From: Desulfurococcales archaeon
Lineage (GTDB): Archaea; Thermoproteota; Thermoprotei_A; Sulfolobales; Ignisphaeraceae
Reading direction: 5' to 3'
NCBI GenBank assembly: GCA_027066265.1
Contig: JAMOOB010000490.1
Location: 3,111-67,110 of the forward strand
Length of the DNA stretch: 64,000 bases
Made by a program: the position numbers and the translations under genes. The notes under the pieces were generated by a model. The model was not told the DNA's origin. It made no database searches and was given only the letters and a program-made list of their open reading frames with translations. Positions within the stretch are counted from its first letter, which is position 1. Every line of letters begins with the position of its first letter. Shown here piece by piece: positions 32,229 through 57,362 of this stretch.

Positions 32229-32240
32229 CCACAGCTGTGG
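32229..32240. promoter_or_regulatory. CCACAGCTGTGG palindrome (perfect)
   Basis: In the divergent region between 31672..32037 (minus) and 32365..33348 (plus). Confidence 0.7.
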
Positions 32241-34424: not shown

Positions 34425-34856
34425 TTACTCTGGCGGCATTATCCCTAGCTTTACGGCTAGGTAGTAGGCTATCGATGCTCCTAGAAGCGTGGATACGACC
34501 GACTGCAGAGCCATGGACGCTGTTGGCGGTATCGGTAGGCTGGACAGAACGGCTAGGACAACGGTTGTTATCCCCGAGACCGCGGGTAGGAAAAGCGATA
34601 GGTATACCGTTACACCCGCTAGCTTCCCCAGCCTGGGCATGAACACCGAGACCACTCCGCTCACCTTCCCGAGGGCGCCCAGGATGATGCTCGTTAGACC
34701 CACTATCGGCAGCAGAGCGGACATCCTAGCCATCGCGGGGTGGATGGGGAAGCCCAGGGACGTTAGCACGATGCTCATCAACGTAGCCAGTATGAAGGTC
34801 GCTATACCGAACTGAAACGCGAACCTTCCGATCGAGACGAATATCGCCGACGCCAC
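34425..34856 (-). CDS. membrane protein (about 4 TM)
   Basis: 143-aa hydrophobic ORF abutting the stop of the 1403-aa gene. Confidence 0.55.
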   Translation of the reverse strand: MASAIFVSIGRFAFQFGIATFILATLMSIVLTSLGFPIHPAMARMSALLPIVGLTSIILGALGKVSGVVSVFMPRLGKLAGVTVYLSLFLPAVSGITTVVLAVLSSLPIPPTASMALQSVVSTLLGASIAYYLAVKLGIMPPE

Positions 34857-37800
34857 TAGAGCACCACCCGCTCGCCCACCCTACCCTTCCTCCATACCCT
34901 TCTTATCCTCGGCACAGCCGCGACCATAGGTAGGCTAGGCGGTCTCGAAACCCTCCTCACCCTGGGCAGCCTTCTCCACGACAGCCACACCTCGTCTAGA
35001 ACCGGAACAACCTCCGTAACCTCCTCGAGAACCGGCTGAGTAACGACAACTACGACTCCCTGCGTAGACTCCTCGGTGCCTACGCTCGTGCACCTGCTGA
35101 GCTCGGTGAGAGACGTTGACCTCGTCGTTGTGCTCACCTTCTGCGTATCTGTAACCTCCCTGTTGACCACCTCGAGCTCTATATCCGTTGTCTCCTCCCT
35201 CGGTATAGACGTGCTCCTGCTCTGATCGATCGGCGATACCGTTGACCGCCTCCTGCGGAACACAACGACGTCCGGTCTGACAATCGTTGCAACGATATCT
35301 ATATCCCTCTCCACCAGCTTGCTTCCATACCTCCTCAGCTCATCTGCAAGCTCAACGACTAGGCGCCTAGCGAGCCTATCGTACCTAGCATCGTCTACCA
35401 TCTTGACCAGCCTCTCGGCAACAACCTTGATATCTCTTTTGCTAGCCACATCCTTCTCCACAGCTGTGGACTCAGACCTTGACTCCACCTCGCTTAGACC
35501 GAGAGTGCTCCTAAGGATCTCATCCACCGTCTTCTCATGCTTCTCGGCGACGACGCTGATGCTCCTCCTCGTCTCCACATCCTCATCGATGCTACGCTCC
35601 TTAGCGAGCTTCGTAAGCCTATCGATGCCCAGCGTCTGCTTGACTACCCTATCGATAGACTTCAGATGCTTTTCGGCAACAACATTGATGCTGCGATCCG
35701 TCTCCGCAGCTGTAGGTAGCTCGCTCTCCTTAGTGAGCCTCTCGCGCTCTAGCATCGGCAGGGTCTTCCTCAAGACCTCGTCTACCTGCTTCAGACGCTT
35801 CTCGGCAACAACATCGATGTTCCTCTTGGTCTCCACAGAAGCGTCCAGCTCTCGCTCCTTAGCAAGATGCTTCCTCTCGGTCAGCCTCTGCGTCTCTCTA
35901 AGAACCTCGTCAACGGTTTTGAGGTGCTTCTCAGCAACAACGCTGATAGTCCTCTTGGTCTCGACCTCTTCACCAACGTTGTTCTCTCTAGACAGCTTGG
36001 TGATGCGGTCTATGTCCTGTCTATGCCTGAGAACCTCGTCAACGGTCTTCAGATGCCTCTCGGCAACTACGTGGATATCTCTCCTGGTGGTGACGTCTGC
36101 GCTGAGAGACGTCTCTTTGCTGAGCTTCGTACGCTGCGTCTCTCTGAGTATATGCCTAACTACTCTGTCTAGAACCTGGGTCATGACCGTTCCTACAACG
36201 TTTATCGCCGTATCTATCCTAGCGATAGCGTTGAGAACCCTGTACCTCGCCTCCTGCATCGGCAGGGTCTCGCTCATGGATGTAGAGGTAATGGTCTCGG
36301 CGGTAACGACCCTGTTCACGACCCTGTTGATCGATAGGAGCAGACTCTTCAGCTGAGCGAGATCGATAATCGTCTTCTGCAGGTAGTCGGCTAGCTGCTG
36401 AAGACCCTCGTCCTGAAGCTCCTCCGCGGCGGTCTCGATGCTCTGCTTGGCTTGCTGGAGCTCCGCTATAACCCTATCGATATCGATCCTCTTACCGACC
36501 TCCAGGCTGATGCCGTACTGCTTCAGAGCCTCCGCAACGCTCTTCAGCTCCTGCATAGCTACGGCGCTCCTACCGACAGCCTCACCAACCTTCTCGCCCC
36601 TCTCCGCGCGCTGTATCGCGCTCTCTATCTGGCTCGGCGTGGCGGCTACAACGCCGAGGATTGTAACCGTGGTTCCCTCCGGATCGCTCACCGGCATAGG
36701 TACGACAACAGATCCCCTACGCGTTGTGGTAACCATGGACTCCAGGAGCTTTCCTAGCTCCACCGCGGTCTCGGGCTCGGTCTTAGCCGCGGTCTCGACG
36801 ATCTGCTTCACGTACTGGGCAGCCTCGTCGAGCCTACGCTTCGTGACGGCGTCCACGAACTTCCTGAAGTACGGCTCTATCTCTCTCCACAGATCCCTCG
36901 ATATCATCACCTTCTGCCTGATCGTGTAGTAGATGTCGCCGACCTCTCCGCTCGGCTTCGTTTCGGCAACGACTCTCTGAACCATCGTCGAGACGATCCT
37001 GTCGTCGACGCTCCTCCCTGTTACGTACTTCAGCAGCTCGGCTATCCTCCCCCTGCCCACAGCTACGGTAACGACCCTCCCCTCAGCCGGCTTGATCAGA
37101 AGCGTCGACTCCTCGAGGAACACAGGGTACGGCGCCGAGAGAGCCTCCTCAACAGCCTTAGCGTTCGTTATCCTGAGATCGTCTAGGTGCTGCTCGAGCC
37201 ACCTAACGACATCCCTCATCTGCTTGAGCACGCCCCTCTCCTTGAGGACCCTGTAGAGCGCTACGGACAGCGGTATGTTCTCCTTCTTGGCGAGCTCGTC
37301 GGCAGCCTCGATAAGCTTGGGGTCTAGCCACACCCTGGGCGCAGCTGTGGGATCGGCCGGTATCTGGAACCTCAGTATCCTTCCGTCTACAGCCACCTCG
37401 AGATCGATGAACTTATCGCTCTTCGCAGGTATAGCGACGGTCTTGACCTTGGTTCCGCTGATGTAGATCGGTCTACCGCTCCTAATCGCGTCCTCTAGAG
37501 CCTGGAGGAACTCCATCTGGCTCCTCGTTTCGAGAGGTATCTGGTAGACGATCTCGAGGAGGTTCTGGATCTCCTCCGGCTTGAGGTTCCTCTTCGCTAT
37601 GTACGCAAGGATCTGGTGAGCAGCGTAGTTCTCGTCACCGACCTTAACGACGCGCGACAGCTTCATCGCCGCGTTCTTCAGCATCTCTACGGGTATCTTG
37701 GCGTAGGGCTTGATCTTACCCGCCTCCTCGTAGAATATCACAACGTATGTCCTCCCCGTGCTCGGGTCGTAAACCGTGTCGAAGAACTTCGTCTCGACTC

Positions 37801-39067
37801 TATCGGGAACGAAGTCACCTACGATCTTAGCCGCCTCCTGCGGGGTGAAGCCCCTGATCATCTCCGCGAGCTTCGCGAGCTTGATGCTGCCGGTCCTCTT
37901 AGCGATCCTCGCTACCGCTTTGGCTAGGAGGGTTCTTGCCAGACCGGCCGCTCTAGCACCTATCGCACCGGCTGCTGCACCGGCTACGAGGCTACCTATG
38001 AACTCGGCGAGAGCATTCGGGTCCTCTCTAAGCTCCTTCAGAAGCAGGTCTCGAACAAGCGGGTTCCCCAGCTGGTTCAGCTGGTTCGCGAGGTCGGCTA
38101 GCAGAGGAGCTGCGAAGAGACCTCCGGTCAGGTCTATGAGGAGCGCGTATAGAGCTCCCTGAGCGCCGCTCAGAGCGGTCTTGAGCGCAGCTGCGGCGAT
38201 CTGCATCAGCTGCCCTTTGATATCGCCCCTCTTGGCAAGCTCCTCTCCCTGCCTCTCCCACTGGCTCAGGATCTGCCTAGCTCGATCGAATAGCTCCTGC
38301 AGCGTAACGAGCTTTATTGCTCGAGCAACCTGCCACCACCACTCGGTCCACTGAGGCGGCTTGACCTGGTCGAGCTTACCCTCCTCTACCAGCTTCGCCA
38401 GCTCCTCGACCTTCTTGGGGAGGCACATCCTCACCGCTTCGGCAGCCTGCTCCGGACCGAGGTTCGCGACCTCGTTCGCCACAAGCTCTACGTACTCGTT
38501 GAACTTCCTGTGGATTAGACCGGCTAGCGCTAGCGCTAGCAGCAGGTCGTGCGGTACGGATACGTCGAGCTCGATACGATCCTTCACGATGTAGGGCGTG
38601 ACGACGATCCTCGTCTTACCCTCGTAGAGACCGCGATACGCGTTCTCTAGAACCTGCCTAAGCTTCTTGTAGAGGTCCTCGGGAAGGGATTCGGACATGA
38701 CAACCAGCTCGGCTATCGCCCTCGCTAGCACGCTCCTGGCTTCGTTCGTCATCTTCTCGCTGACCTTCTTGCTGTACTCGGTGAGCGTCAGGTTCCCGCT
38801 CCTAATCGTCTCCTCCTGCTTCTCCCACCACTCCTTCCACGCCTTCTGGTACGCATCCCACTGCCTCTGCCACGTCTCGTAGTACCTGTAGAGAGGGACG
38901 GTGACGTACCTGTAGACAGGCGAAACAACGATGCTCGTGATGACCCTTGTAGGAGCGTAAGCTGTTGTAACGGCTGTTACGTGCCTCGTTACGTACTGCG
39001 TCACCACCTTGGTGACGTAGAGCTTTGGCCCGGGGTACTCCACAACGATGTCTATACCGCTGCTCAC
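34856..39067 (-). CDS. 1403-aa coiled-coil structural-type protein with tetrad-repeat N-terminus and 43-aa tandem repeats
   Basis: N-terminus LYVTKVVTQYVTRHVTAVTT, long alpha-helical middle, and 5 full 43-aa repeats (VVAEKHLKTVDEVLR...VETKR) plus 2 partial. Confidence 0.85.
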   Translation of the reverse strand: MSSGIDIVVEYPGPKLYVTKVVTQYVTRHVTAVTTAYAPTRVITSIVVSPVYRYVTVPLYRYYETWQRQWDAYQKAWKEWWEKQEETIRSGNLTLTEYSKKVSEKMTNEARSVLARAIAELVVMSESLPEDLYKKLRQVLENAYRGLYEGKTRIVVTPYIVKDRIELDVSVPHDLLLALALAGLIHRKFNEYVELVANEVANLGPEQAAEAVRMCLPKKVEELAKLVEEGKLDQVKPPQWTEWWWQVARAIKLVTLQELFDRARQILSQWERQGEELAKRGDIKGQLMQIAAAALKTALSGAQGALYALLIDLTGGLFAAPLLADLANQLNQLGNPLVRDLLLKELREDPNALAEFIGSLVAGAAAGAIGARAAGLARTLLAKAVARIAKRTGSIKLAKLAEMIRGFTPQEAAKIVGDFVPDRVETKFFDTVYDPSTGRTYVVIFYEEAGKIKPYAKIPVEMLKNAAMKLSRVVKVGDENYAAHQILAYIAKRNLKPEEIQNLLEIVYQIPLETRSQMEFLQALEDAIRSGRPIYISGTKVKTVAIPAKSDKFIDLEVAVDGRILRFQIPADPTAAPRVWLDPKLIEAADELAKKENIPLSVALYRVLKERGVLKQMRDVVRWLEQHLDDLRITNAKAVEEALSAPYPVFLEESTLLIKPAEGRVVTVAVGRGRIAELLKYVTGRSVDDRIVSTMVQRVVAETKPSGEVGDIYYTIRQKVMISRDLWREIEPYFRKFVDAVTKRRLDEAAQYVKQIVETAAKTEPETAVELGKLLESMVTTTRRGSVVVPMPVSDPEGTTVTILGVVAATPSQIESAIQRAERGEKVGEAVGRSAVAMQELKSVAEALKQYGISLEVGKRIDIDRVIAELQQAKQSIETAAEELQDEGLQQLADYLQKTIIDLAQLKSLLLSINRVVNRVVTAETITSTSMSETLPMQEARYRVLNAIARIDTAINVVGTVMTQVLDRVVRHILRETQRTKLSKETSLSADVTTRRDIHVVAERHLKTVDEVLRHRQDIDRITKLSRENNVGEEVETKRTISVVAEKHLKTVDEVLRETQRLTERKHLAKERELDASVETKRNIDVVAEKRLKQVDEVLRKTLPMLERERLTKESELPTAAETDRSINVVAEKHLKSIDRVVKQTLGIDRLTKLAKERSIDEDVETRRSISVVAEKHEKTVDEILRSTLGLSEVESRSESTAVEKDVASKRDIKVVAERLVKMVDDARYDRLARRLVVELADELRRYGSKLVERDIDIVATIVRPDVVVFRRRRSTVSPIDQSRSTSIPREETTDIELEVVNREVTDTQKVSTTTRSTSLTELSRCTSVGTEESTQGVVVVVTQPVLEEVTEVVPVLDEVWLSWRRLPRVRRVSRPPSLPMVAAVPRIRRVWRKGRVGERVVL
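35380..36120 (-). repeat. 129-nt (43-aa) tandem repeats inside the 1403-aa CDS
   Basis: 5 full repeats of VVAEKHLKTVDEVLR...VETKR plus 2 partial. Confidence 0.75.
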
Positions 39068-40231: not shown

Positions 40232-42388
40232 TTATTCTGATAGCACGAGCTGTGCAGCCTCATCGATTCTGCCCTCCCTGATTAGCCTGGCTATCCTCCT
40301 AGCGAAGCCGCGGATATCCGGCGTATCCACGCCTGGTAGATCCCTTCTCGACCAGTCCCTTAGCCACGTCCTCACGTACCTTGCACGATGCTTGCTCTCC
40401 CTGCCGACGTCCCTCATAAACCCGTAGCTGTCGGCTAGGTTCGCGAGGAAGATCAGAGCCCTCTTCTCCTTCACTGTTAGCTTCCTAGGCGTCTTGTTAA
40501 GCGCCTGAACGACGAGCTCGTAGATAAAAGGGTACCTCTCCTTGACCAGCTGGAGAGCTCTCTCCAGAGCCGCAACGCGCTCCTCGTGCCTCATCACCCT
40601 CCTGATAACCTTCGCGCCCTCTCCCTCGCCGAGCCTCCTGGACTCCGCCTCTAGCCTCCTCCTCTCCTCCACGAGCCTCCTCATCTCGTCCTGCGGCACG
40701 ATCTCGTTGAGAACGTCGTACCAAGCCTTGGCTCTGTGCGCCTCCCAGGGATCGATGTAGACGAGGTAGACGATGCCAGCGAGCTTACCGGGCGCCGGTC
40801 TAGCGATTCTACCTACCCTCTGGATCATCTGCCTCTTCGTCTTGTACGCCGAAGCCATTATCTCTACATCCGCGTCCGGGATATCGATACCCTCCTCAGC
40901 CGCCTGGTTGAGTATCAGGATCCTTGCCTCTCCCCTCCTGAACCTCTCGATCTCTTCATCTCTCCTCGACGACGATACGCCGAACTGCCTCACGCTGCCT
41001 CTACCAACGTAGACAGCGACCTTCTCCCTTCCGAGCCTCTTCACGAGCTCGTCGTAGATCCTCTTGAGCTGATCTATGAGGTTGCCGAAGATTATCACCT
41101 TCCTGCCCTGCTCAACTGCTTTGATGGCTAGCTCAACGATCTTGCTGATCTTGTTCGGATCGAGAGCGAGGATCCTATCTATCTCTGCTCTTATCTTCTC
41201 CGCGGGTGCGTTTCCGCGGCGCATCATCTTCGATAGCTCTAGAAGCCTCCTCTCATCCTCTGGTGTAGGCTCAACCGGTACCATCTCCACGAGGATGGGT
41301 GCTAGCCACCCCTCCTTGGCTAGCTCTGTATACGGTATCCTGTAGACTATGGGTCCGAGGCTCTCGAAGATCAGGTGCTCGTTCTTATCGTCTCGCTCGG
41401 GAGTGGCTGTTAGACCGAGAACGTATGGCGTTGCTATCATCCTAACGGCTTCGAAGAATCTCTCGGCTGGCACCCTATGACACTCGTCACAGATCAGAAG
41501 ACCGAACCTGTTCCACAGCTTGTCTATGTGTCTATACGCCGACTGGTAGGTGGCTACAGTGATATCGCCTACCTCATGCTTACCGCCACCGAAGATAGCT
41601 GGTTTGATGCCTAGAACCTCCTCGATCTTTCTAGCCCACTGCTCAAGCAGAGCCTCGTTTGGAACCAGAATCAGTGTTGGAACCCTCAGCTTGGCGATCG
41701 CTGCGAGTCCTATCCATGTCTTTCCACCTCCTGTGGGGATGACGATTGTACCCCTGTACCCGTTCCTTATCCACGCATCGATAGCCTCCCTCTGGTACGG
41801 TCTAAGCCTCTCGTAGACCTCCTCGAAGCTCGTCTTGAGATCCACCGTCTTGAGATGGGGCTTCTCGACCTCTACATCTATACCCATGCTCTTCAGCACG
41901 TTGATAACTCTATGGAGGAACCTGGGTGCGACAACGATTCTGATGCCCTCCGGCGTAGTCTCTATCCTTCCTATCCTCACAGTCGTTGGAATGAGCTCGT
42001 AGGTTTTGGTTGCGGGATCGTACTTCTCCCTGTTATACGTAATCCTAAGAACATCCTCGATCCTGCTACGCATATCGTAGGTTAGTCTGCTCGGAATATC
42101 GATTACAGCCATATGCAGCTGGGGATCCAGCCTAACGCTAGCCTTCAGCCTGTACGCCCCCAGCCTCTCGATGAGTTCGGGAGCACCTACCTTCTCGGCG
42201 AACTCCCTAGCAGCCTCAAGATCCTTAACGCCCTTGATCCTCCACCGCTTCAGCGCAGAGTCGTAGCTGACGAAGAACCCCTTCTTCAGCAGCTCCTTCA
42301 GCTCCTCCAGCCTATCCCACGTAAGCTCCTTCCTCACAACCGTGTTCCAGTCCCTGTCAACAACCCAAAACGTTACCGTTCTAGCCAC
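40232..42388 (-). CDS. superfamily 2 helicase (ResIII/XPB-Rad25-like core)
   Basis: LRPYQREAIDAW, motif I PTGGGKT, motif II LLICDECH, motif III GLTATPER, motif VI QRVGRIARP. N- and C-terminal extensions. Confidence 0.85.
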   Translation of the reverse strand: MARTVTFWVVDRDWNTVVRKELTWDRLEELKELLKKGFFVSYDSALKRWRIKGVKDLEAAREFAEKVGAPELIERLGAYRLKASVRLDPQLHMAVIDIPSRLTYDMRSRIEDVLRITYNREKYDPATKTYELIPTTVRIGRIETTPEGIRIVVAPRFLHRVINVLKSMGIDVEVEKPHLKTVDLKTSFEEVYERLRPYQREAIDAWIRNGYRGTIVIPTGGGKTWIGLAAIAKLRVPTLILVPNEALLEQWARKIEEVLGIKPAIFGGGKHEVGDITVATYQSAYRHIDKLWNRFGLLICDECHRVPAERFFEAVRMIATPYVLGLTATPERDDKNEHLIFESLGPIVYRIPYTELAKEGWLAPILVEMVPVEPTPEDERRLLELSKMMRRGNAPAEKIRAEIDRILALDPNKISKIVELAIKAVEQGRKVIIFGNLIDQLKRIYDELVKRLGREKVAVYVGRGSVRQFGVSSSRRDEEIERFRRGEARILILNQAAEEGIDIPDADVEIMASAYKTKRQMIQRVGRIARPAPGKLAGIVYLVYIDPWEAHRAKAWYDVLNEIVPQDEMRRLVEERRRLEAESRRLGEGEGAKVIRRVMRHEERVAALERALQLVKERYPFIYELVVQALNKTPRKLTVKEKRALIFLANLADSYGFMRDVGRESKHRARYVRTWLRDWSRRDLPGVDTPDIRGFARRIARLIREGRIDEAAQLVLSE

Positions 42389-42624: not shown

Positions 42625-43356
42625 TTACTGTTCGTACCATGCTTTTCTAATGGTTTTCTCGTAGACTGTTATGCCGTGCTGTCTCAGGTTGTCGATCAGC
42701 TCAAGTGTTTTGTCCAGCGTGGGCTCGGGTAGCCTATTGTCATAGTTGTCGTACCCGATGTACACGAACTCCGGCTCTATCTCGGCGATCTTCTCTGCGA
42801 AGCTTCTTGGGCTGGAGAAGTCTATGATGGGCTCTATCGAGACCATCTTCCTTAGGCATCTAAGAGCCTTCATATACGCTATGCGCTCGGAAGGCAGGGG
42901 CGCTCTCGATATTCCGTAGCCTATGTACAGCTCATCGAGATCGGTCTCGATCGTAGCGCCAAAGATAGCGTTTCGATGTAGACACAGCGTGCTCTTCAAG
43001 GCGTAGTACCTCCTCGGATTCTTGGTCAGGAACAAGAACGTTGTCTGCGGAAACCTCTCAACCACTTCGAGCACCCTGTAAATCCATTTCTCCGGAACCC
43101 AGTCACCGAACATATCACCCATATCAGCAACAAACACGAGCTCACCCGGCTTGAAGCATACATCAAGCTCCTTCTCGTGAAGCTTAGGAACGAAGCCCTC
43201 AGCATACTTCCTAGTTACCTTGCGAAGCCTGGTCTCCACCAACATCCTAGCCCAACAGTACTTACAGTAATGCTTACAACCAGTGATGGGGTTCCATGTA
43301 CGTGTAACGATGTGGAACATCCTCGTTCCTTCATATCTAGACCTAGCCATATCCAT
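42625..43356 (-). CDS. DUF5131 / phage Gp37-Gp68 family protein
   Basis: TRTWNPITGCKHYCKYCWA matches the family's WNP..GC....C..C signature. Start trimmed to ATG 43356, downstream of the palindrome variant at 43384. Confidence 0.6.
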   Translation of the reverse strand: MDMARSRYEGTRMFHIVTRTWNPITGCKHYCKYCWARMLVETRLRKVTRKYAEGFVPKLHEKELDVCFKPGELVFVADMGDMFGDWVPEKWIYRVLEVVERFPQTTFLFLTKNPRRYYALKSTLCLHRNAIFGATIETDLDELYIGYGISRAPLPSERIAYMKALRCLRKMVSIEPIIDFSSPRSFAEKIAEIEPEFVYIGYDNYDNRLPEPTLDKTLELIDNLRQHGITVYEKTIRKAWYEQ

Positions 43357-43613
43357 CACCACACCTAGATGACATTGATATCCCCACAGCTGAGGTAAAG
43401 ATGTATCGGAACAGGTACGTAACCCGTCGAGAGGGTCTATGATCATCGTTGCGTCTCGCATCTTTTAGCTTCTCCATGTGATAAGCAGCTGTAGCGGGGA
43501 ACGGCACTATGTTGGATCCCCATATAATCGAGCTCAAAATGCTTGAGGAGATCGAGGATCTCATCGAGGAGATCTACCAGGTGGACGCTGTGATTCCTGC
43601 GGCGGGCTGATCC

Positions 43614-45516: not shown

Positions 45517-46374
45517 TCAGTACTCAACGGTTACCTCTATGTGGCTCAGAATATCCTTTACCCTCTGTCTAAGGGTTGGCTCCGCAATGATCGCTATGCT
45601 CCTCAGCTCCTTCTGCGATACCCTGTACCCAAGCGCGTTGGCGGCTACGTAGATCGCGGCGGCCGCTATAGACCTCGGGCTCTTCCCGTCTATACACGAG
45701 TCCGGGAGCAGACCAACGATTCTCTCGGCAAGAGTTCTGACCTCTGCTGGGAGACCTAGCCGTCCTGCGATCCTGCCTATCTCCGCCATAGCGATCTTTC
45801 TCCCGCTGACGCGTATTCCCAGTACCTCCATCAGCTTCCTCACCATTGCCCACAGATCGCTCCTATCGATACCGAGCGCATCGGTAAGGGCATCCACATC
45901 TATAGACACGCCTCTGCTCCTAGCAGCCAGGAGAATCGCGGCTGCAGCCAAAGCGCTTCTCCACCTCTTCGGCGCGTTGAAAGACGCGTAGATGCTTCTC
46001 AGAGCCTTCCTCGCTGCTATAGCGGCATCCTCGACAACGTCGTCGGGAACACCAAGGGATCTACCTACGCGCCATATCTTCGTCAGCACGCCGACCATAG
46101 CTCTGCTCTTCTCCTTCCTAAGCCTCCTCTGAAGCCTATCGATCTTCGGGTCGTCCGCCGTTGTCCACAGACCACCGTCGTGAACAGCCATAGTCACTCT
46201 CGCGCTCGAAGCCTTGCTGAAGTACTCGTCGGGCTCTACAATCCTTGGTGGCAGAGCAACTATCGGGTGATCGACCACGACCTCGCCGGTCTCGGGATCT
46301 ACGAGCTCACCCGTAACCGGATCCCGAACGAGGTTTCTACCCATGTGCTCGGGATCGAGGTTTAGAACATCCAT
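45517..46374 (-). CDS. transcription factor B (TFIIB)-like protein lacking zinc-ribbon cysteines
   Basis: HDGGLWTT (B-linker HDkGLsT-like) and two cyclin-fold repeats, including GKSPRSIAAAAIYVAANALGYRVSQKELRSIAIIAEPTLRQRVKDI. No CxxC in the N-terminal 40 aa. Confidence 0.75.
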   Translation of the reverse strand: MDVLNLDPEHMGRNLVRDPVTGELVDPETGEVVVDHPIVALPPRIVEPDEYFSKASSARVTMAVHDGGLWTTADDPKIDRLQRRLRKEKSRAMVGVLTKIWRVGRSLGVPDDVVEDAAIAARKALRSIYASFNAPKRWRSALAAAAILLAARSRGVSIDVDALTDALGIDRSDLWAMVRKLMEVLGIRVSGRKIAMAEIGRIAGRLGLPAEVRTLAERIVGLLPDSCIDGKSPRSIAAAAIYVAANALGYRVSQKELRSIAIIAEPTLRQRVKDILSHIEVTVEY

Positions 46375-46396
46375 GTGGATCCCCATAAAAAGGCGT

Positions 46397-46977: not shown

Positions 46978-46989
46978 CCACAGCTGTGG
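46978..46989. promoter_or_regulatory. CCACAGCTGTGG palindrome (perfect)
   Basis: TTTT-palindrome-GGATGTGCG-ATG of the 51-aa zinc-ribbon ORF, at the head of the TFB module. Confidence 0.7.
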
Positions 46990-47056
46990 AAAAGTTGGGT
47001 GATGGGTGTATGATGCTGTGTGAGGTTTGATTGATGCGCCCCAAAAACAGGTGTGT

Positions 47057-50675: not shown

Positions 50676-50787
50676 TCAAAACCCCAGCTGTGGGGTGTTA
50701 AGTGATGTTTGAGATATGAGATATGACATGTGAACCACGAAAATGGTGTGTCTCCCCAGAGCTATGGGTGTAAAGGGGGTAAAAGTT

Positions 50788-52564: not shown

Positions 52565-52576
52565 CCACAGCTGTGG
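52565..52576. promoter_or_regulatory. CCACAGCTGTGG palindrome (perfect)
   Basis: Lies 12 nt downstream of CTTATAC and 8 nt upstream of ATG 52556. Confidence 0.7.
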
Positions 52577-52812
52577 AAACAAGATACAGTATAAGGACGG
52601 GGGTTGTGGACTGAAGAATGTCTGGTGTTTTGTGATTAATGTTAATTGTTAACTCTTGTTGATTGATAGTCGATGTCCACTGATATTTTGAAGCCCCAGA
52701 TGTAAAAGTGGTTTAGGTACATACGATTAGTGTCGCTGCAGATCTTCGTCAGCGCGATTCCTGGGTTCGGCGTTTCCACCTCTCCACCTCCGCAGCTGTG
52801 GAGACGAAAATG

Positions 52813-52988: not shown

Positions 52989-53106
52989 TGTTCTACCCCC
53001 AGAGAGATGATGTTGGTTGTGTTATGTATGATGTTATGTGAACATTGAATACTGAATTGCGTCGCGTGCTTGGCACTCCCCAAAAATAGTGTGTGGTGCT
53101 GCGGGT

Positions 53107-53703
53107 TCATTCTTGTGGGAGGAGGTTCTTGATTCTTGTGGTGATGAACTCGTGGGCTTTGGCTGGATCTGTAGATATGTATGTCTCGATCTCGAATCTT
53201 CCGTGACCCATCTTGGTTCCGCTCATGAGACCAACGTACCTGCCTCCGTAGGCTAGGGCAGCCACGAACTTGTCCACTACTGAGGCGTCTACCCTGGCTA
53301 CGAACGCTATGATGTGCACCGACGAGAGGTATTCATATGTTTCGCTCAGGTTCTTACCCTCCTTGCCGAATATCGGGCGCGTGTAGATGAACGGCTTCGG
53401 TCCGTAGACGTAGGCGTAGTTAGTGGCGATACCCTTCTCATCAACGATCTCGAAGTCGAGGATCTTCCTAACGACATCCTCCGGGTAGCCAAGAGCTCTA
53501 CACGCTCTTCTAAGCACGGCTCTGATCCACCTCCTCAAGATAATCGGTCTGCCATTGACATCCCTCGGAAACGCTCTGTCCAGATGCCTAGCCTGCTTAG
53601 AGTCGGCGATCCACCCCTTCTTGATGTACAGTGCAATCTCGTCCGCTGGAAGCACAGGTGCTCTGATGGGCGTCACAGGCTTGATTATGACACCTACATA
53701 CAT
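53107..53703 (-). CDS. hypothetical protein with RAMP-like (Cas7/Cas6-type) motifs
   Basis: MYVGVIIKPVTPI..., FPRDVNGRPIILRRWIRAVLRRA (resembles P.IPGSS.KG.LR) and the C-terminal glycine-rich loop VGLMSGTKMGHGRFEIE. The functional call is weak. Confidence 0.4.
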   Translation of the reverse strand: MYVGVIIKPVTPIRAPVLPADEIALYIKKGWIADSKQARHLDRAFPRDVNGRPIILRRWIRAVLRRACRALGYPEDVVRKILDFEIVDEKGIATNYAYVYGPKPFIYTRPIFGKEGKNLSETYEYLSSVHIIAFVARVDASVVDKFVAALAYGGRYVGLMSGTKMGHGRFEIETYISTDPAKAHEFITTRIKNLLPQE

Positions 53704-53739
53704 CGGGGAATTGGGGCTTGAGCGAGGCACAGCCCATCC

Positions 53740-53751
53740 CCACAGCTGTGG
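53740..53751. promoter_or_regulatory. CCACAGCTGTGG palindrome (perfect)
   Basis: TTTTT-palindrome-GGAT, upstream of the RAMP-like gene. Confidence 0.7.
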
Positions 53752-53798: not shown

Positions 53799-54059
53799 TT
53801 ATTCACAGATGTGTTTCTTGATCTCCTCCTTCAGCTCGTTAACGGTTTTCTCAAGGGCTGTGATAACGATCATAAGGAGTTCCTCGGCTAGCCTAGGATC
53901 GTTGATGGGTACGCCGCAGATATACACCGTGCCTTCCTCTATGCTGATTCCAACGGTTTGTCTGGTTCTAGCCGCTTCGATAGCATCGAGCAGGTTGATA
54001 TATGTGTCTAGAAGGATTCGAAGATGCGTTTTGTTGGAGAGCTGGGGCTCATACTCCAT
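53799..54059 (-). CDS. small hypothetical protein
   Basis: 86-aa ORF with CCACAGCTGGGGGCAAGAA-ATG context. Confidence 0.5.
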   Translation of the reverse strand: MEYEPQLSNKTHLRILLDTYINLLDAIEAARTRQTVGISIEEGTVYICGVPINDPRLAEELLMIVITALEKTVNELKEEIKKHICE

Positions 54060-54092
54060 TTCTTGCCCCCAGCTGTGGAAAAAGCTGTAGGG

Positions 54093-55442
54093 CTACGATG
54101 TGACCATCCTGATGGCTCCTCGTATAAGCTCCTCGACTGTGTTCACCTTTACGTGCCTGAAGTGCTTTAGCCATCCTGGTCTCCACGACGGTGGCAGGAT
54201 TATGAATCCGACCCTGTACCTGCTCGCAACCTCCTTGGCGAGGTCCTCCGGAACCTCGTCGATCCCGTCGGAGATCACGATGTATACCCTGTCGCGTCTG
54301 CCGATCCGCTTGATCGTCTTCAGCACCTCCTCGATGCTCGTACCTCCATCGGCGCAGATGGTGAGGAGCGTTCTCACAACGTCTCTGGGGCTAACCTTCT
54401 CGACCTCCGTGTCGAAGAGGTAGACCTCGCCGCCGAGCTTCCTGTACAGCGCTAGAGCTAGCCCCGCTGCGCCGGCGATCTTCTCGACGAGCTGCCCGGT
54501 CTCCGAAGGCATCGTCTCCGCCATGCTGCCGCTCTTATCCACGAATATCACCGGTCTGAAAGCGGCTGCGCGCTGGTAGACAACGGCTGTTCTGCTGAGG
54601 AGCCTAAGCGCGAAGAGCTCGAACGGCAGCACGTGCTCCGTCGTCGTCAGGTCCACGATCTGCCTAGGATCGCGCATTATTCCGACACCCGTTATGCCAC
54701 CGAACACGGCTGTCACATTCATGTGTTCGAGGGATGTCGGTACGGATGATAGCGCTAGCCTGAACATCCTCAGAGCGTTCTTCAGGATCCTGACGCGGTT
54801 GCGGAACTCATGGGGACGCTCGAGAAATGTCCACACCGATAGCGCATCATGGCTGTAGCCAGAGCAGCCACCCAGCATAGCCGCCGCCTCCTCTGCCTCC
54901 GCCTTCCCCTGCTGGTACTCCTGAACAGCCTGTAGCGCCGCCTGTGCAGCCGCTAGGGCTGCCCTCGTAGCCCTGTCGATGAGCTCCTGAAGCGCTTGGT
55001 TCAAGGCTTGACCTGTCAGCGTCTGTTGCTGTAGCTGCTTGATCTTCTGCTGAGCAACCTGCGTATCCAGCTCGGACAGCAGGTTCTTGAGGAACTGGTA
55101 CGCAGCGATAACAGCGAGATCCACAGAGCCAGCAGTAACCCTGTTCAGCCTGTAGAACTCGTCGGAAGAAAGGTAGTTCTGCATAATCTTGTGCCACACG
55201 ATACTCGCAGACTTCTTGACGTTTCTCATCACCGTCTCATAGGATTTGTAGTGAGACATAAACGCATCGAAAACCATGTAGAACCTCGGTCTGACCCTAG
55301 ACCTCCACAGCAGCCTAAACACATCGTTAGTGAACTGCGCATAGTACTCAACAGGCAGCCCCTCCAGGATACCCATCTTGAACACCGATTTCGCCAAGCC
55401 AGAACGGTAAAACGCTTCTTCTTGAGCCTTGTCAAGACTCAT
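54093..55442 (-). CDS. von Willebrand factor A (VWA/MIDAS) domain protein
   Basis: VIFVDKSGSM (DxSxS MIDAS) in the C-terminal half. Start trimmed to ATG 55442 after CCACAGCTGTGGGGTTGGAA. Confidence 0.8.
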   Translation of the reverse strand: MSLDKAQEEAFYRSGLAKSVFKMGILEGLPVEYYAQFTNDVFRLLWRSRVRPRFYMVFDAFMSHYKSYETVMRNVKKSASIVWHKIMQNYLSSDEFYRLNRVTAGSVDLAVIAAYQFLKNLLSELDTQVAQQKIKQLQQQTLTGQALNQALQELIDRATRAALAAAQAALQAVQEYQQGKAEAEEAAAMLGGCSGYSHDALSVWTFLERPHEFRNRVRILKNALRMFRLALSSVPTSLEHMNVTAVFGGITGVGIMRDPRQIVDLTTTEHVLPFELFALRLLSRTAVVYQRAAAFRPVIFVDKSGSMAETMPSETGQLVEKIAGAAGLALALYRKLGGEVYLFDTEVEKVSPRDVVRTLLTICADGGTSIEEVLKTIKRIGRRDRVYIVISDGIDEVPEDLAKEVASRYRVGFIILPPSWRPGWLKHFRHVKVNTVEELIRGAIRMVTS

Positions 55443-55450
55443 TTCCAACC

Positions 55451-55462
55451 CCACAGCTGTGG
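55451..55462. promoter_or_regulatory. CCACAGCTGTGG palindrome (perfect)
   Basis: Lies 8 nt upstream of the VWA gene ATG 55442. Confidence 0.7.
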
Positions 55463-55520
55463 ATATGGACAACAAGCGTAGTCATCCCCCAAACAAATGT
55501 CTATTGTTTGATGTGGTTTG

Positions 55521-55680
55521 GGTGCACCTAAACCTTTGCAGAGGGACGCAAGAATTGAGAGAGGTGCACCGAGATAGCGTCAAGACCTGGGTTTACATAG
55601 CCGATACAAAACATTGTGGAAGCGTTCAATGTTGCAGCCCCTGTATATACCGCTCCATCGCCGTAGCCGTCTGATGGTTT
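55521..55680 (-). repeat. GGTGCACC-box element plus duplicated promoter/leader, copy B
   Basis: GGTGCACC at 55521 and 55563, with the identical 35-mer at 55634-55668. Lies between the moxR-like and VWA genes. Confidence 0.7.
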
Positions 55681-55699
55681 GCTCAGCTATGTAAAAAGG

Positions 55700-56863
55700 C
55701 TAGGTGTTTCCGGCTAGCTTCTTCAGCATCTCCTTCGTCTCAGCAACCTTGTTGAGGTACTCCCTAGCCTGCGCAATGATAGCCTCTGCTCTTGGTTTGA
55801 GCCACGGCTTGTTGGCGATCTTGTTGAGGTCGAAGTCGACAATTTCCTGAAGGATCTTCTCGGCTTCGTCAAGTCTACAGCTTCTTATCAGCTCCTTGGC
55901 TCTGCTGAGCTTCTCGGCAAGCTCGCCGACCTCTCCGAGACCCTCCATAATGATCTTCTTGATCTGCTCATGCTCACTCCTATCGCGTGCTAGATACGGC
56001 AGTATCTTTATCGCTCCCTCCATAACGTTCTCTAAGCGCACACCGAACAGCGCCAGATAGGCGGCGAGGAGCTTCGGGAGCTTCTCGATGATGGTTCTAT
56101 CGCTAACGATAATGCCTTTGGCTCTGAGCTCCTTGACGAAGTTGATCACGTTGACATGGTACAGCTTGATGAAGTCCATATCCCTTATCCTGCTCCTTAT
56201 CAATGTGATGGTATAGCCATGAAGCGTCCTAACGTCGTCCATAGACGCAACGGGCTTGATCTCGTGCCCGTTGAGCCATCTAGCCTCCAGCGCTTTCAGT
56301 ATCAGCACATCATCGTTTAGGTAGTCAAAGAATATTCTGATACTGAATCGGTCGTAGAGAGCCTGCAGCTCCTCGTCCTGTGGCACCTCGTTACTAGCAC
56401 CAAATAAGCTCCACAGCTTGGCAGGAACCTCAGCACCGGACATCGGGTCGTAGAGTATCCTCTCCTGCATTAGAGCCAGCAAAGCGTTTAGAATAGCGCT
56501 GTTAGCCTTGAACACCTCGTCGAGGAACACTATCTCAGCATCCTTGATCTTCGTCCATTTCCTCACAAGATCTCCTCGTTCTCTAAGCGCTGGAATGTCG
56601 AACGGACCAAGAATCTCGATATCGCTGGTAAACTTGGTTAGTAGATAGCTGTAGAAGCTGGCGTTCAGCAGCTTGGCAAGGGTCTTGATAGTCATCGTCT
56701 TGGCTGTGCCCGGCGGGCTGATCATGACGGCGTGTTCCTTGGCAATCAATGCTAGGACAAGCATCGTATTAACCTCGTCGTGACCGATGACAACCGAGTT
56801 CAGAACGTTTAGAACCTGCTTAACGTTATGACGAGCGTTTTTCACTTCTTGAGGAACGGACAT
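55700..56863 (-). CDS. MoxR/RavA-type AAA+ ATPase
   Basis: VIGHDEVNTMLVLALIAKEHAVMISPPGTAKT (Walker A) and VFLDEVFKANSAILNALLALMQER (Walker B, RavA-like). Start trimmed to ATG 56863. Confidence 0.85.
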   Translation of the reverse strand: MSVPQEVKNARHNVKQVLNVLNSVVIGHDEVNTMLVLALIAKEHAVMISPPGTAKTMTIKTLAKLLNASFYSYLLTKFTSDIEILGPFDIPALRERGDLVRKWTKIKDAEIVFLDEVFKANSAILNALLALMQERILYDPMSGAEVPAKLWSLFGASNEVPQDEELQALYDRFSIRIFFDYLNDDVLILKALEARWLNGHEIKPVASMDDVRTLHGYTITLIRSRIRDMDFIKLYHVNVINFVKELRAKGIIVSDRTIIEKLPKLLAAYLALFGVRLENVMEGAIKILPYLARDRSEHEQIKKIIMEGLGEVGELAEKLSRAKELIRSCRLDEAEKILQEIVDFDLNKIANKPWLKPRAEAIIAQAREYLNKVAETKEMLKKLAGNT

Positions 56864-56889
56864 TTCAACCCCCAAAACAAACAAGGTGT

Positions 56890-57350: not shown

Positions 57351-57362
57351 CCACAGCTGTGG
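57351..57362. promoter_or_regulatory. CCACAGCTGTGG palindrome (perfect)
   Basis: TTTT-palindrome-GGATCTCC-ATG 57342. Confidence 0.7.

What the first reader, a model, noticed from the sequence alone, without database searches (positions are those of the whole stretch)
53107..53703. Stand-alone RAMP-like (Cas7/Cas6-type) protein with no CRISPR array or other cas genes
Seen directly: the ~198-aa product has three features.
- It starts with a beta-strand-like MYVGVIIKPVTPI.
- It contains FPRDVNGRPIILRRWIRAVLRRA, which resembles the D....G.P.IPGSS.KG.LR motif of Cas7/Csm3-type RAMPs.
- It ends with a glycine-rich loop VGLMSGTKMGHGRFEIE, resembling the G.G...G.G.F loop of RAMP/Cas6 proteins.

I see no CRISPR array, cas1/2/3/10 or other cas gene in the window.

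Inference (weak, motif-level only): this may be an RRM-fold RNA-binding or RNA-cutting protein. If so, the obvious candidate substrate is the recurrent CCACAGCUGUGG-GGAU element at gene junctions. Formally that element resembles a Cas6-type site: a short GC hairpin followed by a conserved 3' handle.
Basis: inference. Interest (0 to 1): 0.65.

Follow-up and report, generated by a model that had tools for sequence, protein, structure and literature searches.

The report
Viral solo Cas7-like protein with heptamer arrays
The gene encodes a stand-alone, CRISPR-type RNA-binding protein in a probable archaeal virus; it is a distant relative of the newly described viral "Vipr" guide-RNA proteins, and it sits next to non-coding repeats with a 7-base rhythm that may be a new kind of guide RNA.

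Summary
The ORF and its three motifs are real, and the RAMP reading holds. A family of at least 34 distant homologues exists. Family members match Pfam RAMPs, and the family profile matches Cmr6 and Csm5. With that alignment the AlphaFold model is confident (pLDDT 96.8), and its top 50 PDB fold matches are all Cas7-type subunits, not Cas6. A profile comparison also links the family to the Vipr protein of the VIPR systems described in a 2026 preprint (95% probability).

There is no CRISPR array or cas operon in the window.

The proposed substrate, the CCACAGCTGTGG palindrome, is not supported. It is absent from 45 of the 46 loci fetched; the one that has it is the same virus. In this window it behaves as a gene-start or promoter element.

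What does travel with the protein is an adjacent, same-strand, G-poor non-coding tract of heptamers (CA + 5 variable bases). The CA form occurs in 20 of about 33 non-redundant loci, a relaxed YA form in a few more, and essentially never on the other strand. It is often preceded by a covarying K-turn-like hairpin. The window has four such arrays but no such hairpin.

The best reading is a VIPR-like guide system with a 7-nt code instead of the published 5-nt code. No targets were found and no RNA data exist.

The parts
53107..53730 (-). Gene for a stand-alone Cas7-like RAMP, a distant Vipr relative. It is 198 aa from ATG 53703, or 207 aa from GTG 53730.
   Evidence: ORF. Family of 34 representatives. 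Pfam RAMPs in 9 of 34 members. Cmr6 and Csm5 profile hits. PADLOC Csm3. AlphaFold pLDDT 96.8. Foldseek top 50 all Cas7-type. hhalign to the Vipr family at 95.4%.
53740..53751 (.). Copy of the CCACAGCTGTGG palindrome with an upstream T-run, 9 nt before the GTG start. It is probably a promoter or gene-start element of this gene, not a RAMP substrate.
   Evidence: 47 copies against 0.1 expected. Position relative to start codons. Absent from all other RAMP loci.
53006..53068 (-). CA-heptamer array 1: 9 units, 8 of them with CA (CACGCGA CGCAATT CAGTATT CAATGTT CACATAA CATCATA CATAACA CAACCAA CATCATC). It starts 39 nt after the RAMP stop codon. Candidate guide-type RNA.
   Evidence: Same position and strand as the arrays in homologous loci.
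53078..53088 (-). TATTTTTGGGG, a T-rich element between the RAMP stop codon and array 1. Similar ACAC..TTTTTGGGG elements precede arrays 3 and 4. It could be a TATA-like promoter or a terminator (inference only).
   Evidence: T-rich, TATA-like stretches also precede the hairpin and array in L010, L011, L014 and L024.
52600..52648 (-). CA-heptamer array 2: 7 of 7 units (CAATTAA CATTAAT CACAAAA CACCAGA CATTCTT CAGTCCA CAACCCC). It lies in the same 538-nt low-coding gap downstream of the RAMP gene.
50684..50732 (-). CA-heptamer array 3: 7 units, the last two running into the palindrome at 50682-50693.
46995..47036 (-). CA-heptamer array 4: 6 of 6 units, directly upstream of the palindrome at 46978-46989.
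53799..54059 (-). 86-aa ORF immediately upstream of the RAMP gene. It has no family match. Whether it is an accessory gene is unknown.
   Evidence: No neighbouring gene is conserved across the loci.
54093..56884 (-). VWA-domain protein (54093-55475) and MoxR-type AAA+ ATPase (55700-56884) upstream of the RAMP gene. One distant homologue locus (L001) has the same order: ATPase, VWA/DUF2201, RAMP.

Best explanation
**What it is.** The gene encodes a small, single-RRM, Cas7-like RAMP carried by a probable archaeal virus. It stands outside any CRISPR-Cas locus and is remotely homologous to Vipr, the protein of the recently described VIPR systems.

**Proposed mechanism (inferred by analogy, not shown).**
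- The G-poor tract just downstream on the same strand is transcribed.
- RAMP protomers polymerise along it, one per heptamer.
- Each protomer sequesters the conserved CA dinucleotide and displays the five variable bases.
- The filament then acts as a sequence-specific guide against another nucleic acid, most likely a competing virus or the host.
- In many relatives a K-turn-like hairpin at the 5' side of each array would act as the handle or nucleation and processing mark. This virus lacks that hairpin.

**What is shown and what is inferred.**
- Shown: the fold and family of the protein; the absence of CRISPR and cas; and the tight, strand-specific association of the protein family with period-7 CA+N5 arrays and with the hairpin.
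- Inferred: that the arrays are RNAs, that the protein binds them in a 7-nt register, and that they guide target recognition.
For: **Protein.**
- An exhaustive HMMER search finds 34 representatives at 26-40% identity to the query in the alignment.
- 9 of 34 members hit Pfam RAMPs, best E 2.9e-6.
- The family profile hits Cmr6 (4e-4), Csm5 (1e-3), and Cas7, Cas5 and Csm4 more weakly.
- The window protein hits PADLOC Csm3 at 4e-4.
- The AlphaFold model with the alignment has pLDDT 96.8 and pTM 0.91.
- Its top 50 PDB fold matches are all Cas7-type subunits: Csm3, type VII Cas7, type III-D, Cmr4 and Cas7-11. Probability is 1.00 and TM-score 0.48-0.64.
- The top viral matches are phage RAMP-like proteins and a Los Azufres archaeal virus 2 protein.
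- hhalign against a SUSP1-type Vipr alignment gives probability 95.4%, E 1.7e-8, over 130 columns. The SUSP1 locus was verified.

**Arrays.**
- The 150-550 nt downstream of the gene is ORF-poor in most loci. It is G-poor and shows autocorrelation peaks at lags 7 and 14.
- Strict CA-heptamer chains occur in 20 of about 33 non-redundant loci. All are on the RAMP strand and near the gene; none is on the other strand across about 324 kb.
- With a relaxed YA rule, 37 segments lie on the RAMP strand and 2 on the other at period 7. Periods 5, 6, 8 and 9 give few segments with no comparable excess on the RAMP strand.
- The logo is C 0.89, A 0.96, then five positions with under 0.12 bits each.
- L037 has 43 consecutive units.
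- Close relatives differ by 7- and 14-nt indels and by local hypervariable patches.
- The window has four arrays, all on the minus strand. None appears at periods 5, 6 or 8 on that strand, and shuffles reach at most 6 of 8.

**Hairpin.**
- A K-turn-like hairpin lies 11-60 nt after the stop codon in many loci. It has a C-stem, an NAU bulge, tandem G.A/A.G pairs and an NC-stem.
- Its stems covary, and L022 carries a circularly permuted version.
- The covariation score is 0.266 against 0.110 in shuffles, exceeded in 0 of 500.
- The covariance model recovers only its 13 training sites plus one weak extra site. All 14 lie on the RAMP strand next to the gene.
Against: - There are no RNA or binding data, so transcription, strand and register are inferred.
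- The published VIPR code is pentanucleotide. No period-5 GGY array exists in the window.
- The Vipr G-loop residues that read GGY (D177, W178, R179; preprint 10.64898/2026.04.26.720927) appear as GDWRPRFGRF in the Vipr alignment consensus. The corresponding block here reads GYGRF, so this is not a canonical VIPR.
- The window's arrays are short (6-9 units), and the window lacks the K-turn hairpin.
- Three of the four arrays abut the virus-wide palindrome, so a DNA-level intergenic role cannot be excluded.
- Five loci, including the most distant homologue L001, show no array.
- No target was found under skip rules of 0-3 nt in the window or across the loci. Four exact-pattern scans of IMG/VR also found nothing.
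- No conserved accessory gene was seen.
Confidence: 0.6

Rival explanations
1. One reading: the protein is a Cas6-like endoribonuclease. It binds and cuts viral transcripts at the CCACAGCUGUGG hairpin plus GGAU handle found at gene junctions.
For: - The palindrome is strongly over-represented: 47 copies with at most 1 mismatch against 0.1 expected.
- It sits at gene junctions.
- Three of the four heptamer arrays in the window end right at a palindrome. An array plus palindromic hairpin could therefore form one RNA unit in a virus that lacks the K-turn hairpin.
Against: - The fold is single-RRM and Cas7-like, not the two-RRM Cas6 fold. All top 50 matches of the confident model are Cas7-type.
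- The palindrome is absent from the 45 loci of other viruses, about 40 of which encode homologues. Those proteins are nevertheless conserved and keep heptamer arrays.
- A T-run, then the palindrome, then a start codon 2-10 nt later fits a promoter of leaderless or short-leader mRNAs. The element encodes a TFB homologue. If so, the palindrome may not be in the mature RNA at all.
Confidence: 0.07
2. Anti-CRISPR decoy: a viral solo Cas7 joins or poisons the host's type I or type III backbone filament, or sequesters host crRNA. The nearby repeats would be unrelated or act as RNA decoys.
For: - The closest solved structures are backbone subunits of type III and type VII effector complexes.
- The gene is in a virus-like context without other cas genes.
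- Virus-encoded Cas mimics and RNA anti-CRISPRs are known in general (my own knowledge, not tested here).
Against: - Identity to any Cas7 in the fold search is only 9-18%. A decoy would need to keep the subunit interfaces of a specific host complex.
- The conserved partner across diverse viruses is a period-7 array, not a CRISPR repeat or a 6-nt register.
- Profile similarity to Vipr is strong.
Confidence: 0.12
3. The same RNP architecture, but the effector is an RNA-targeting nuclease like Csm3 or Cmr4 rather than a DNA-binding silencer like Vipr. The near-invariant Asp of the HLDRAF block (D42) would cut target RNA once per protomer.
For: - Family members match Pfam RAMPs, the family profile matches Csm5 and Cmr6, and the window protein matches PADLOC Csm3.
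- D42 is invariant among the eight closest members.
- By my reading of the Csm3 sequence it lies about six residues before the RD..G.P.I block, where the Csm3 catalytic Asp lies. This was recalled, not superposed here.
Against: - No structural superposition of the active site was done.
- The PADLOC Csm3 match starts after D42, at residues 44-146.
- The nearest characterised stand-alone relatives, the Viprs, bind DNA and have no reported nuclease activity (preprint 10.64898/2026.04.26.720920).
Confidence: 0.2
4. The heptamer tracts are DNA-level or compositional features of intergenic regions, such as promoter-upstream elements or iterons. The RAMP would be an unrelated RNA-binding or chaperone protein.
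For: - In the window the arrays lie in intergenic spacers just upstream of the gene-start palindrome.
- A related heptamer-like tract on the other strand (32016-32214) lies 21 kb from the gene.
Against: - In about 324 kb of loci from diverse viruses, strict arrays occur only next to the RAMP gene and only on its strand.
- With the relaxed rule the count is 37 on the RAMP strand and 2 on the other.
- Strand-specific G depletion and an adjacent structured hairpin with covariation point to an RNA.
Confidence: 0.1

Closest known systems
VIPR systems: Vipr protein plus vrRNA (bioRxiv 10.64898/2026.04.26.720920 and 10.64898/2026.04.26.720927)
   Same: - It is a stand-alone RAMP of about 20 kDa with an RRM core, thumb and G-loop.
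- It is encoded mostly by viruses, outside CRISPR loci, and flanked by long non-coding stretches.
- It has adjacent same-strand tandem short repeats in which a fixed motif alternates with variable bases.
- In several related loci there are two or three arrays in tandem; the window has four separate arrays.
- No self-targets were found.
- Profile-profile homology is 95.4%.
   Different: - The repeat unit is 7 nt (CA + 5 variable bases) rather than 5 nt (GGY + NN or the listed 5-nt variants).
- The variable block is five contiguous bases rather than two.
- The G-loop lacks the Vipr D-W-R residues that read GGY.
- The conserved structured element is a K-turn-like hairpin on the 5' side of each array, not a 3' pseudoknotted tail.
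- No vap-like accessory gene was recognised.
- The hosts are hyperthermophilic archaeal viruses.
Cas7 backbone subunits of class 1 CRISPR effectors (Csm3, Cmr4, type VII Cas7)
   Same: These are the best structural matches (probability 1.00, TM-score up to 0.64). They have the same sequence blocks, D..G.P.I...L.G..R and G.G...G.GRF. They are expected to coat a single-stranded RNA in a fixed register.
   Different: There are no Cas10, Cas5, Cas11 or Cas6 partners, no CRISPR array and no adaptation genes. The apparent register is 7 nt instead of 6 nt. The guide would be genome-encoded repeats, not acquired spacers.
Cas6 repeat-processing endoribonucleases
   Same: They belong to the RAMP superfamily and have a G-rich loop. 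They gave weak hits with the low-confidence model and by sequence.
   Different: Cas6 has two RRM domains and acts on CRISPR repeat hairpins. The confident model is a single RRM with a thumb and matches Cas7 rather than Cas6.
Kink-turn RNA motifs bound by archaeal L7Ae (box C/D and H/ACA sRNAs, RNase P RNA)
   Same: The hairpins next to the arrays in related loci have the K-turn signature: a canonical stem, a 3-nt bulge, tandem sheared G.A/A.G pairs and a second stem. The bulged strand reads like box C, (C)GAUGA.
   Different: There is no box D/C' architecture or guide region of a C/D sRNA, and no Rfam family is hit. Binding by L7Ae or by the RAMP is untested. The motif is not present in the window itself.

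Membership tests
RAMP superfamily, Cas7-like fold | RRM (ferredoxin-like) core with a thumb-like beta-hairpin | tested here: met
   The AlphaFold model (pLDDT 96.8) has the order beta1, alpha1, beta, long beta-hairpin (105-126), beta, alpha2, beta4. All top 50 Foldseek matches are Cas7-type at probability 1.00.
RAMP superfamily, Cas7-like fold | C-terminal glycine-rich loop and N-terminal D..G.P.I...L.G..R block detectable by profiles | tested here: met
   G154, G158 and G166 are conserved in at least 90% of members and G168 is invariant. The blocks align to Cmr6 GaKTslGYGrF and Csm5 F.kDafGrPyIPGSSLKGALR. Pfam RAMPs hits 9 of 34 members. PADLOC Csm3 hits the window protein.
CRISPR-Cas type III or type I effector subunit (Csm3, Cmr4, Cas7) | Encoded with partner cas genes (Cas10 or Cas8, Cas5, Cas11, Cas6) and a CRISPR array | tested here: not met
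   There is no repeat-spacer array. No cas families were found among the window proteins scanned, apart from a generic SF2 helicase. Neighbours scanned in related loci are replication and DNA-modification genes.
Cas6 | Two RRM domains; best structural similarity to Cas6 endoribonucleases | tested here: not met
   The model has a single RRM. Cas6 is absent from the top 50 matches of the confident model. It appeared only with the pLDDT 54.7 model and at sequence E 1.5.
VIPR (Vipr plus vrRNA) | Small stand-alone RAMP in a viral or proviral, non-CRISPR locus | tested here: met
   The protein is 198-207 aa. The context is virus-like: a MoxR ATPase weakly similar to that of Bicaudaviridae, a TFB homologue, no tRNA or rRNA, and mostly orphan ORFs. 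Related loci carry DNA polymerase B, primase, TGT and PAPS reductase genes.
VIPR (Vipr plus vrRNA) | Sequence homology to Vipr proteins | tested here: met
   hhalign of the family against a 24-sequence SUSP1-type Vipr alignment gives probability 95.4%, E 1.7e-8, over 130 columns. Against the single SUSP1 sequence only the G-loop region aligns, at 56%. The phylogenetic position relative to VIPR types I-VII was not determined.
VIPR (Vipr plus vrRNA) | Adjacent vrRNA made of tandem pentanucleotide repeats (YNNGG, or NNNGG, YNNNG, NNNNG) | tested here: not met
   A period-5 GGY scan of the window finds nothing above shuffles. Autocorrelation at lag 5 in the flanks stays at background. A period-5 YA scan finds only 3 segments. 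The repeats present have period 7 with CA fixed. The positive control, the SUSP1 locus, shows clear GGTNN repeats.
VIPR (Vipr plus vrRNA) | Conserved accessory gene (vap) next to vipr | tested here: inconclusive
   No neighbour family is shared by more than 6 of about 40 loci at BLASTP level. The 86-aa upstream ORF has no family match. A zinc ribbon is fused to the RAMP in P0010. By eye, a small ORF with CxxC pairs lies next to the RAMP gene in L009.
VIPR (Vipr plus vrRNA) | The RNA is expressed, co-purifies with the protein, and guides DNA binding with a skip rule | not testable with these tools
   No expression data are available. Searches for targets under skip rules of 0-3 nt found nothing.
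Kink-turn hairpin (as the array handle) | C-stem, 3-nt bulge, tandem G.A/A.G, NC-stem, with covariation | tested here: met
   Met in related loci. Not met in the window itself: the descriptor scan and the covariance model find no copy near the gene.

The most novel reading that the evidence does not exclude
This protein family and its co-oriented CA+N5 heptamer arrays, in many members with a K-turn handle, form an undescribed branch of VIPR-like, CRISPR-independent RNA-guided systems in viruses of hyperthermophilic archaea. It would use a 7-nt register in which two bases are held by the protein and five contiguous bases are displayed. That is a third RAMP register, beside the 6 nt of Cas7 and the 5 nt of Vipr, with a different recognition code.
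Probability: 0.45. Interest if true: 0.85.

Novelty: new variant of a known kind. Interest (0 to 1): 0.78.

Why it matters
Stand-alone viral RAMPs with repeat-coded guide RNAs (VIPR) were described only in 2026 and are proposed to be ancestors of CRISPR effectors.

A related family in archaeal viruses that pairs with a 7-nt code (2 fixed + 5 variable) would have three consequences:
- It would show that the RAMP filament can be tuned to different registers and codes.
- It would offer a guide with five-base contiguous reading blocks. If real, that would be relevant to programmable tools and would come from thermophile-associated viruses.
- It would add an archaeal, K-turn-linked branch to the question of where CRISPR backbones came from.

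For annotation, it gives a name and a testable partner RNA to a family that carries no informative name or Pfam domain in the members looked up, in hot-spring and hydrothermal viromes. It also separates that system from the virus-wide palindromic gene-start motif.

Tried and rejected
**Searches with the single sequence found nothing useful.**
- Pfam, PHROGs and PDB gave no hits.
- The word-indexed protein search found only the protein itself.
- The single-sequence AlphaFold model was poor, pLDDT 54.7, and its fold matches were not significant.
- blastn and tblastn against the phage and archaeal virus collection found no relative of the region or the protein.
- IMG/VR held no relative.

**Canonical VIPR RNA.**
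- There is no period-5 GGY array in the window.
- The G/T-rich repeat at 32030-32228 first looked like a vrRNA, but it has periods 4 and 7 and anti-correlation at lag 5.

**Hammerhead or other known RNAs.** Rfam found nothing in the window or in 17 loci. The hairpin core CCGAUGA...GA does not fit the hammerhead core by inspection.

**K-turn hairpin in the window.** Neither the descriptor scan nor the covariance model found one near the gene.

**Target search.**
- There were no matches above shuffled controls for window arrays under skips of 0-3 nt.
- Cross-locus matches came only from redundant contigs.
- Four exact 20-base patterns (skip 1 and skip 2) in IMG/VR gave no hits.

**Other leads.**
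- A shared CGCAAT heptamer as an anchor is not enriched.
- BLASTP-level conserved synteny is essentially absent. Only the MoxR-VWA-RAMP order is shared, with one distant locus.
- Cluster look-up gave no names or accessions that would link the family to the seeds of the VIPR preprint.
- The preprint's supplementary tables are not held. I could not check whether any of its 664 loci belongs to this family.
Full report
**1. The observation**

The public gene call for the identical protein is 207 aa (P0001). That corresponds to a GTG at 53730, which lies 9 nt after the palindrome at 53740-53751. Many other genes here show the same motif-to-start distance, so the true start may be this GTG.

No repeat-spacer array is present. 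There are no tRNA genes or Rfam families. No cas genes were found among the window proteins I scanned. The one partial exception is an SF2 helicase at 40232-42388. Its best matches are ResIII and PbeA, with only a weak Cas3-like C-terminal hit.

**2. What the protein is**

Taken alone, the sequence hits nothing in Pfam, PHROGs or the PDB. The indexed protein search returns only the protein itself, on a 72,206-bp contig.

The exhaustive HMMER search finds 34 cluster representatives at 26-40% identity to the query in the alignment.

Several independent tests place this family in the RAMP superfamily:
- Nine of the 34 members hit Pfam RAMPs (PF03787), best E 2.9e-6.
- The family profile hits Cmr6 (4e-4) through the G-loop block and Csm5 (1e-3) through the N-terminal block. 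Cas7, Cas5, Csm4 and Cmr4 follow more weakly, along with the "SUSP1 Vipr protein".
- The window protein itself hits PADLOC Csm3 at E 4e-4.

Without an alignment the AlphaFold model was poor (pLDDT 54.7). With the 34-sequence alignment it is very confident (pLDDT 96.8, pTM 0.91). All 50 best PDB matches of that model are Cas7-type backbone subunits: Csm3, type VII Cas7, type III-D Cas7, Cmr4 and Cas7-11. Probability is 1.00, E goes down to 2e-7 and TM-score reaches 0.64. Cas6 is not among them.

Against predicted viral structures, the best matches are a phage "Cas system-associated RAMP superfamily protein", two uncharacterised viral proteins and a Los Azufres archaeal virus 2 protein.

The RAMP reading is therefore right, and it can be sharpened to a single-RRM, Cas7-like protein.

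**3. Link to VIPR**

The name of the PDB hit led to two 2026 preprints. These describe VIPR systems:
- a stand-alone viral RAMP of about 20 kDa (Vipr);
- vrRNAs made of 9-16 pentanucleotide repeats (YNNGG), followed by a structured tail;
- one Vipr protomer binds each repeat, sequestering GGY and displaying NN, which reads DNA with a 1-nt skip.

I located the SUSP1 locus as a positive control. The vipr gene is L004 28474-29061, and the flanking DNA shows plain GGTNN repeats.

A 24-sequence alignment of SUSP1-type Viprs matches our family profile at 95.4% probability, E 1.7e-8, over 130 columns. The family is therefore a remote Vipr homologue.

The Vipr G-loop residues that read GGY are D177, W178 and R179. 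They appear as GDWRPRFGRF in the Vipr alignment consensus. In this family the corresponding block reads GYGRF.

**4. What travels with the protein**

A degenerate-peptide scan retrieved 38 metagenomic loci and 4 MAG contigs encoding homologues. They come mostly from hydrothermal and hot-spring samples. The MAG bins are labelled Desulfurococcales, Culexmicrobium, Nanopusillus and Aerophobetes.

The neighbouring genes are extremely diverse. Those I scanned are viral replication and DNA-modification genes: DNA polymerase B, primase, MCM-like and AAA ATPases, TGT, PAPS reductase, and a pectate-lyase-like protein. None is a cas gene.

The conserved feature is non-coding. The 150-550 nt after the stop codon is ORF-poor in most loci. 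It is G-poor (7-17% G) and shows autocorrelation peaks at lags 7 and 14.

Read in register, these tracts are heptamers with CA fixed and five variable bases. L037 has 43 consecutive units and L022 has two 15-unit arrays. The pooled logo over 340 units is C 0.89, A 0.96, then five positions with less than 0.12 bits each.

The association with the gene is strong and strand-specific:
- Strict chains (at least 6 units, at least 75% CA) occur in 20 of about 33 non-redundant loci.
- They are always on the RAMP-coding strand and next to the gene. Most are downstream; in two loci they are upstream.
- None occurs on the opposite strand in about 324 kb.
- With a relaxed YA rule, period 7 gives 37 segments on the RAMP strand and 2 on the other. 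Periods 5, 6, 8 and 9 give few segments, with no comparable excess on the RAMP strand.
- Close relatives differ in the tract by 7- and 14-nt indels, cassette-sized indels and local hypervariable patches, while the flanks are 95-99% identical.

**5. A structured element next to the arrays**

In many loci a small hairpin containing (C)GAUGA lies 11-60 nt after the stop codon. It is often preceded by a T-rich, TATA-like stretch. It recurs before each array where there are several, as in L005, L014/L019, L022, L023 and L027.

Its parts fit a kink-turn: a canonical stem, a 3-nt NAU bulge, tandem G.A/A.G pairs, a frequently non-Watson-Crick 3b.3n pair, and a second stem closed by a loop. L022 carries a circularly permuted version.

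The stems covary: CC/GG, GA/UC and CG/CG for one, and many different sequences for the other. On the alignment, the covariation score is 0.266 against 0.110 in shuffles (exceeded in 0 of 500), and it exceeds all slid controls.

A covariance model built from 14 copies recovers 13 of them plus one weak extra site in 324 kb. All 14 hits are on the RAMP strand next to the gene. Rfam knows none of this.

**6. The window itself**

The minus strand carries four CA-heptamer arrays:
- 53006-53068, 9 units, starting 39 nt after the stop codon;
- 52600-52648, 7 of 7 units, in the same 538-nt gap;
- 50684-50732;
- 46995-47036.

There are none on the plus strand and none on the minus strand at periods 5, 6 or 8. 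Shuffled sequence reaches at most 6 of 8.

The window has no K-turn hairpin near the gene and no period-5 GGY array. A T-rich element, ACAC..T(5)GGGG, precedes arrays 1, 3 and 4. Arrays 2-4 end at or just before a copy of the palindrome.

**7. The palindrome**

CCACAGCTGTGG, with at most one mismatch, occurs 47 times against 0.1 expected. On the minus strand it often follows a T-run. In 17 cases it is followed within 2-10 nt by the start codon of an ORF of at least 50 aa.

The window encodes a TFIIB/TFB homologue at 45517-46386. The T-run sits roughly 20-25 nt before the start codon. That would suit a TATA-like element of leaderless or short-leader transcripts, with the palindrome as a virus-specific promoter-proximal element. 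This is inference.

The motif is absent from 45 of the 46 loci fetched, including about 40 that encode homologues. The only locus with it, L003, is the same virus from another sample. It therefore does not co-vary with the protein family.

A weaker form is not excluded: in this virus, which lacks the K-turn, the palindromic hairpin that follows three arrays may serve as their 3' end.

**8. Mechanism**

The best-supported reading is a VIPR-like ribonucleoprotein:
- The G-poor, and therefore unstructured, tract is transcribed.
- RAMP protomers coat it, one per heptamer.
- The CA is held by the protein and five bases are displayed for pairing.

What is shown is the fold, the homology and the genomic association. 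Transcription, binding register and guiding are inferred.

Whether the target is DNA, as for Vipr, or RNA, as for Csm3, is open. The near-invariant D42 of the HLDRAF block lies about where I recall the Csm3 catalytic Asp to be. I did not superpose the structures.

I found no targets:
- none in the window under skips of 0-3 nt;
- none across the loci beyond redundant contigs;
- none in IMG/VR with four exact patterns.

The search space and the exact-match requirement were small. These negatives are therefore weak evidence.

**9. Novelty**

The protein class, a stand-alone viral RAMP related to Vipr, is now known. The published VIPR types are all described as pentanucleotide: YNNGG, NNNGG, YNNNG and NNNNG. 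Neither preprint mentions heptamers or kink-turns.

A 7-nt (2+5) repeat with a K-turn handle therefore looks like a new variant. Its supplementary tables are not available here, so I could not check whether members of this family are already among the preprint's 664 loci. The family members looked up carry no informative name or accession.

I rate this a new variant of a known kind, with high interest, resting on computational evidence only.

Noticed in passing
window 32016-32214 (+ strand reading; G/T-rich on the - strand): A roughly 200-nt G-poor, TAG-laden repeat on the plus strand with about 25 heptamer-like units (CYACCYA; TRF consensus ACCTACT), split by a central TTTAAA. It is the only YA-heptamer tract in the window on the strand opposite the RAMP gene, and it lies 21 kb away. 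It sits between a zinc-ribbon gene (31672-32037, -) and a palindrome copy (32229-32240). It has low complexity, unlike the variable arrays. It could be a fifth array, a decoy or an origin-like element; this is unexplained.
   Followed up: partly
window-wide; e.g. 57351-57362, 54067-54078, 52565-52576, 46978-46989: The palindrome CCACAGCTGTGG occurs 47 times with at most 1 mismatch, against 0.1 expected. On the minus strand it often follows TTTT and is followed by GGAT. In 17 cases a start codon lies 2-10 nt downstream. It is probably a virus-specific promoter or gene-start element.
   Followed up: partly
window 45517-46386 (-): A 289-aa protein with a TFIIB/TFB cyclin repeat (E 1.5e-18). An element-encoded transcription initiation factor could explain the unusual conserved promoter-proximal motif.
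   Followed up: no
window 53078-53088, about 50735-50750 and about 47039-47055 (-); also upstream of the motifs at 57351 and 59475: A second recurrent element, ACAC(C)..TGTTTTT(CTTT)GGGG, stands just before heptamer arrays 1, 3 and 4 and upstream of some palindrome copies. It could be a terminator or a promoter.
   Followed up: no
window 32481-32740 (+), inside ORF 32365-33348: Fifteen tandem 12-nt units (GGTACCCAAxxx) with a 60-nt super-period, inside a 327-aa plus-strand ORF that has no Pfam match. This would be a 4-residue protein repeat if the ORF is real.
   Followed up: no
window 54093-56884 (-); L001 1773-4220: A MoxR-type AAA+ ATPase followed by a VWA/DUF2201 protein lies upstream of the RAMP gene, both here and in the most distant homologue locus. 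The ATPase is weakly similar to the MoxR ATPases of Acidianus two-tailed virus and Sulfolobus monocaudaviruses.
   Followed up: partly
window 19807-25989 (-), 34856-39067 (-), 40232-42388 (-), 42625-43461 (-), 2707-3831 (+), 7453-8646 (-), 16950-18218 (-): Other contents of the element include a 2060-aa protein with ConA-like lectin domains and a 1403-aa orphan. There is also an SF2 helicase that is best matched by PbeA and has a weak Cas3-like C-terminal domain. A DUF5131/radical-SAM-like protein and three GT4 glycosyltransferases complete the list. This is consistent with a large archaeal virus or plasmid.
   Followed up: no
P0010 (homologue); L009 about 1027-1226: One homologue has an N-terminal zinc ribbon fused to the RAMP domain. 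By eye, another locus has a small ORF with CxxC pairs between the RAMP gene and its K-turn hairpin. This may hint at an accessory DNA- or RNA-binding module.
   Followed up: no
L014 vs L019, about 3944-3983 in L014: Two contigs that are 99-100% identical across the RAMP gene and most of the array region differ by about 11 substitutions within a 40-nt patch of the G-poor tract. That is the pattern expected of a rapidly changing guide segment.
   Followed up: partly
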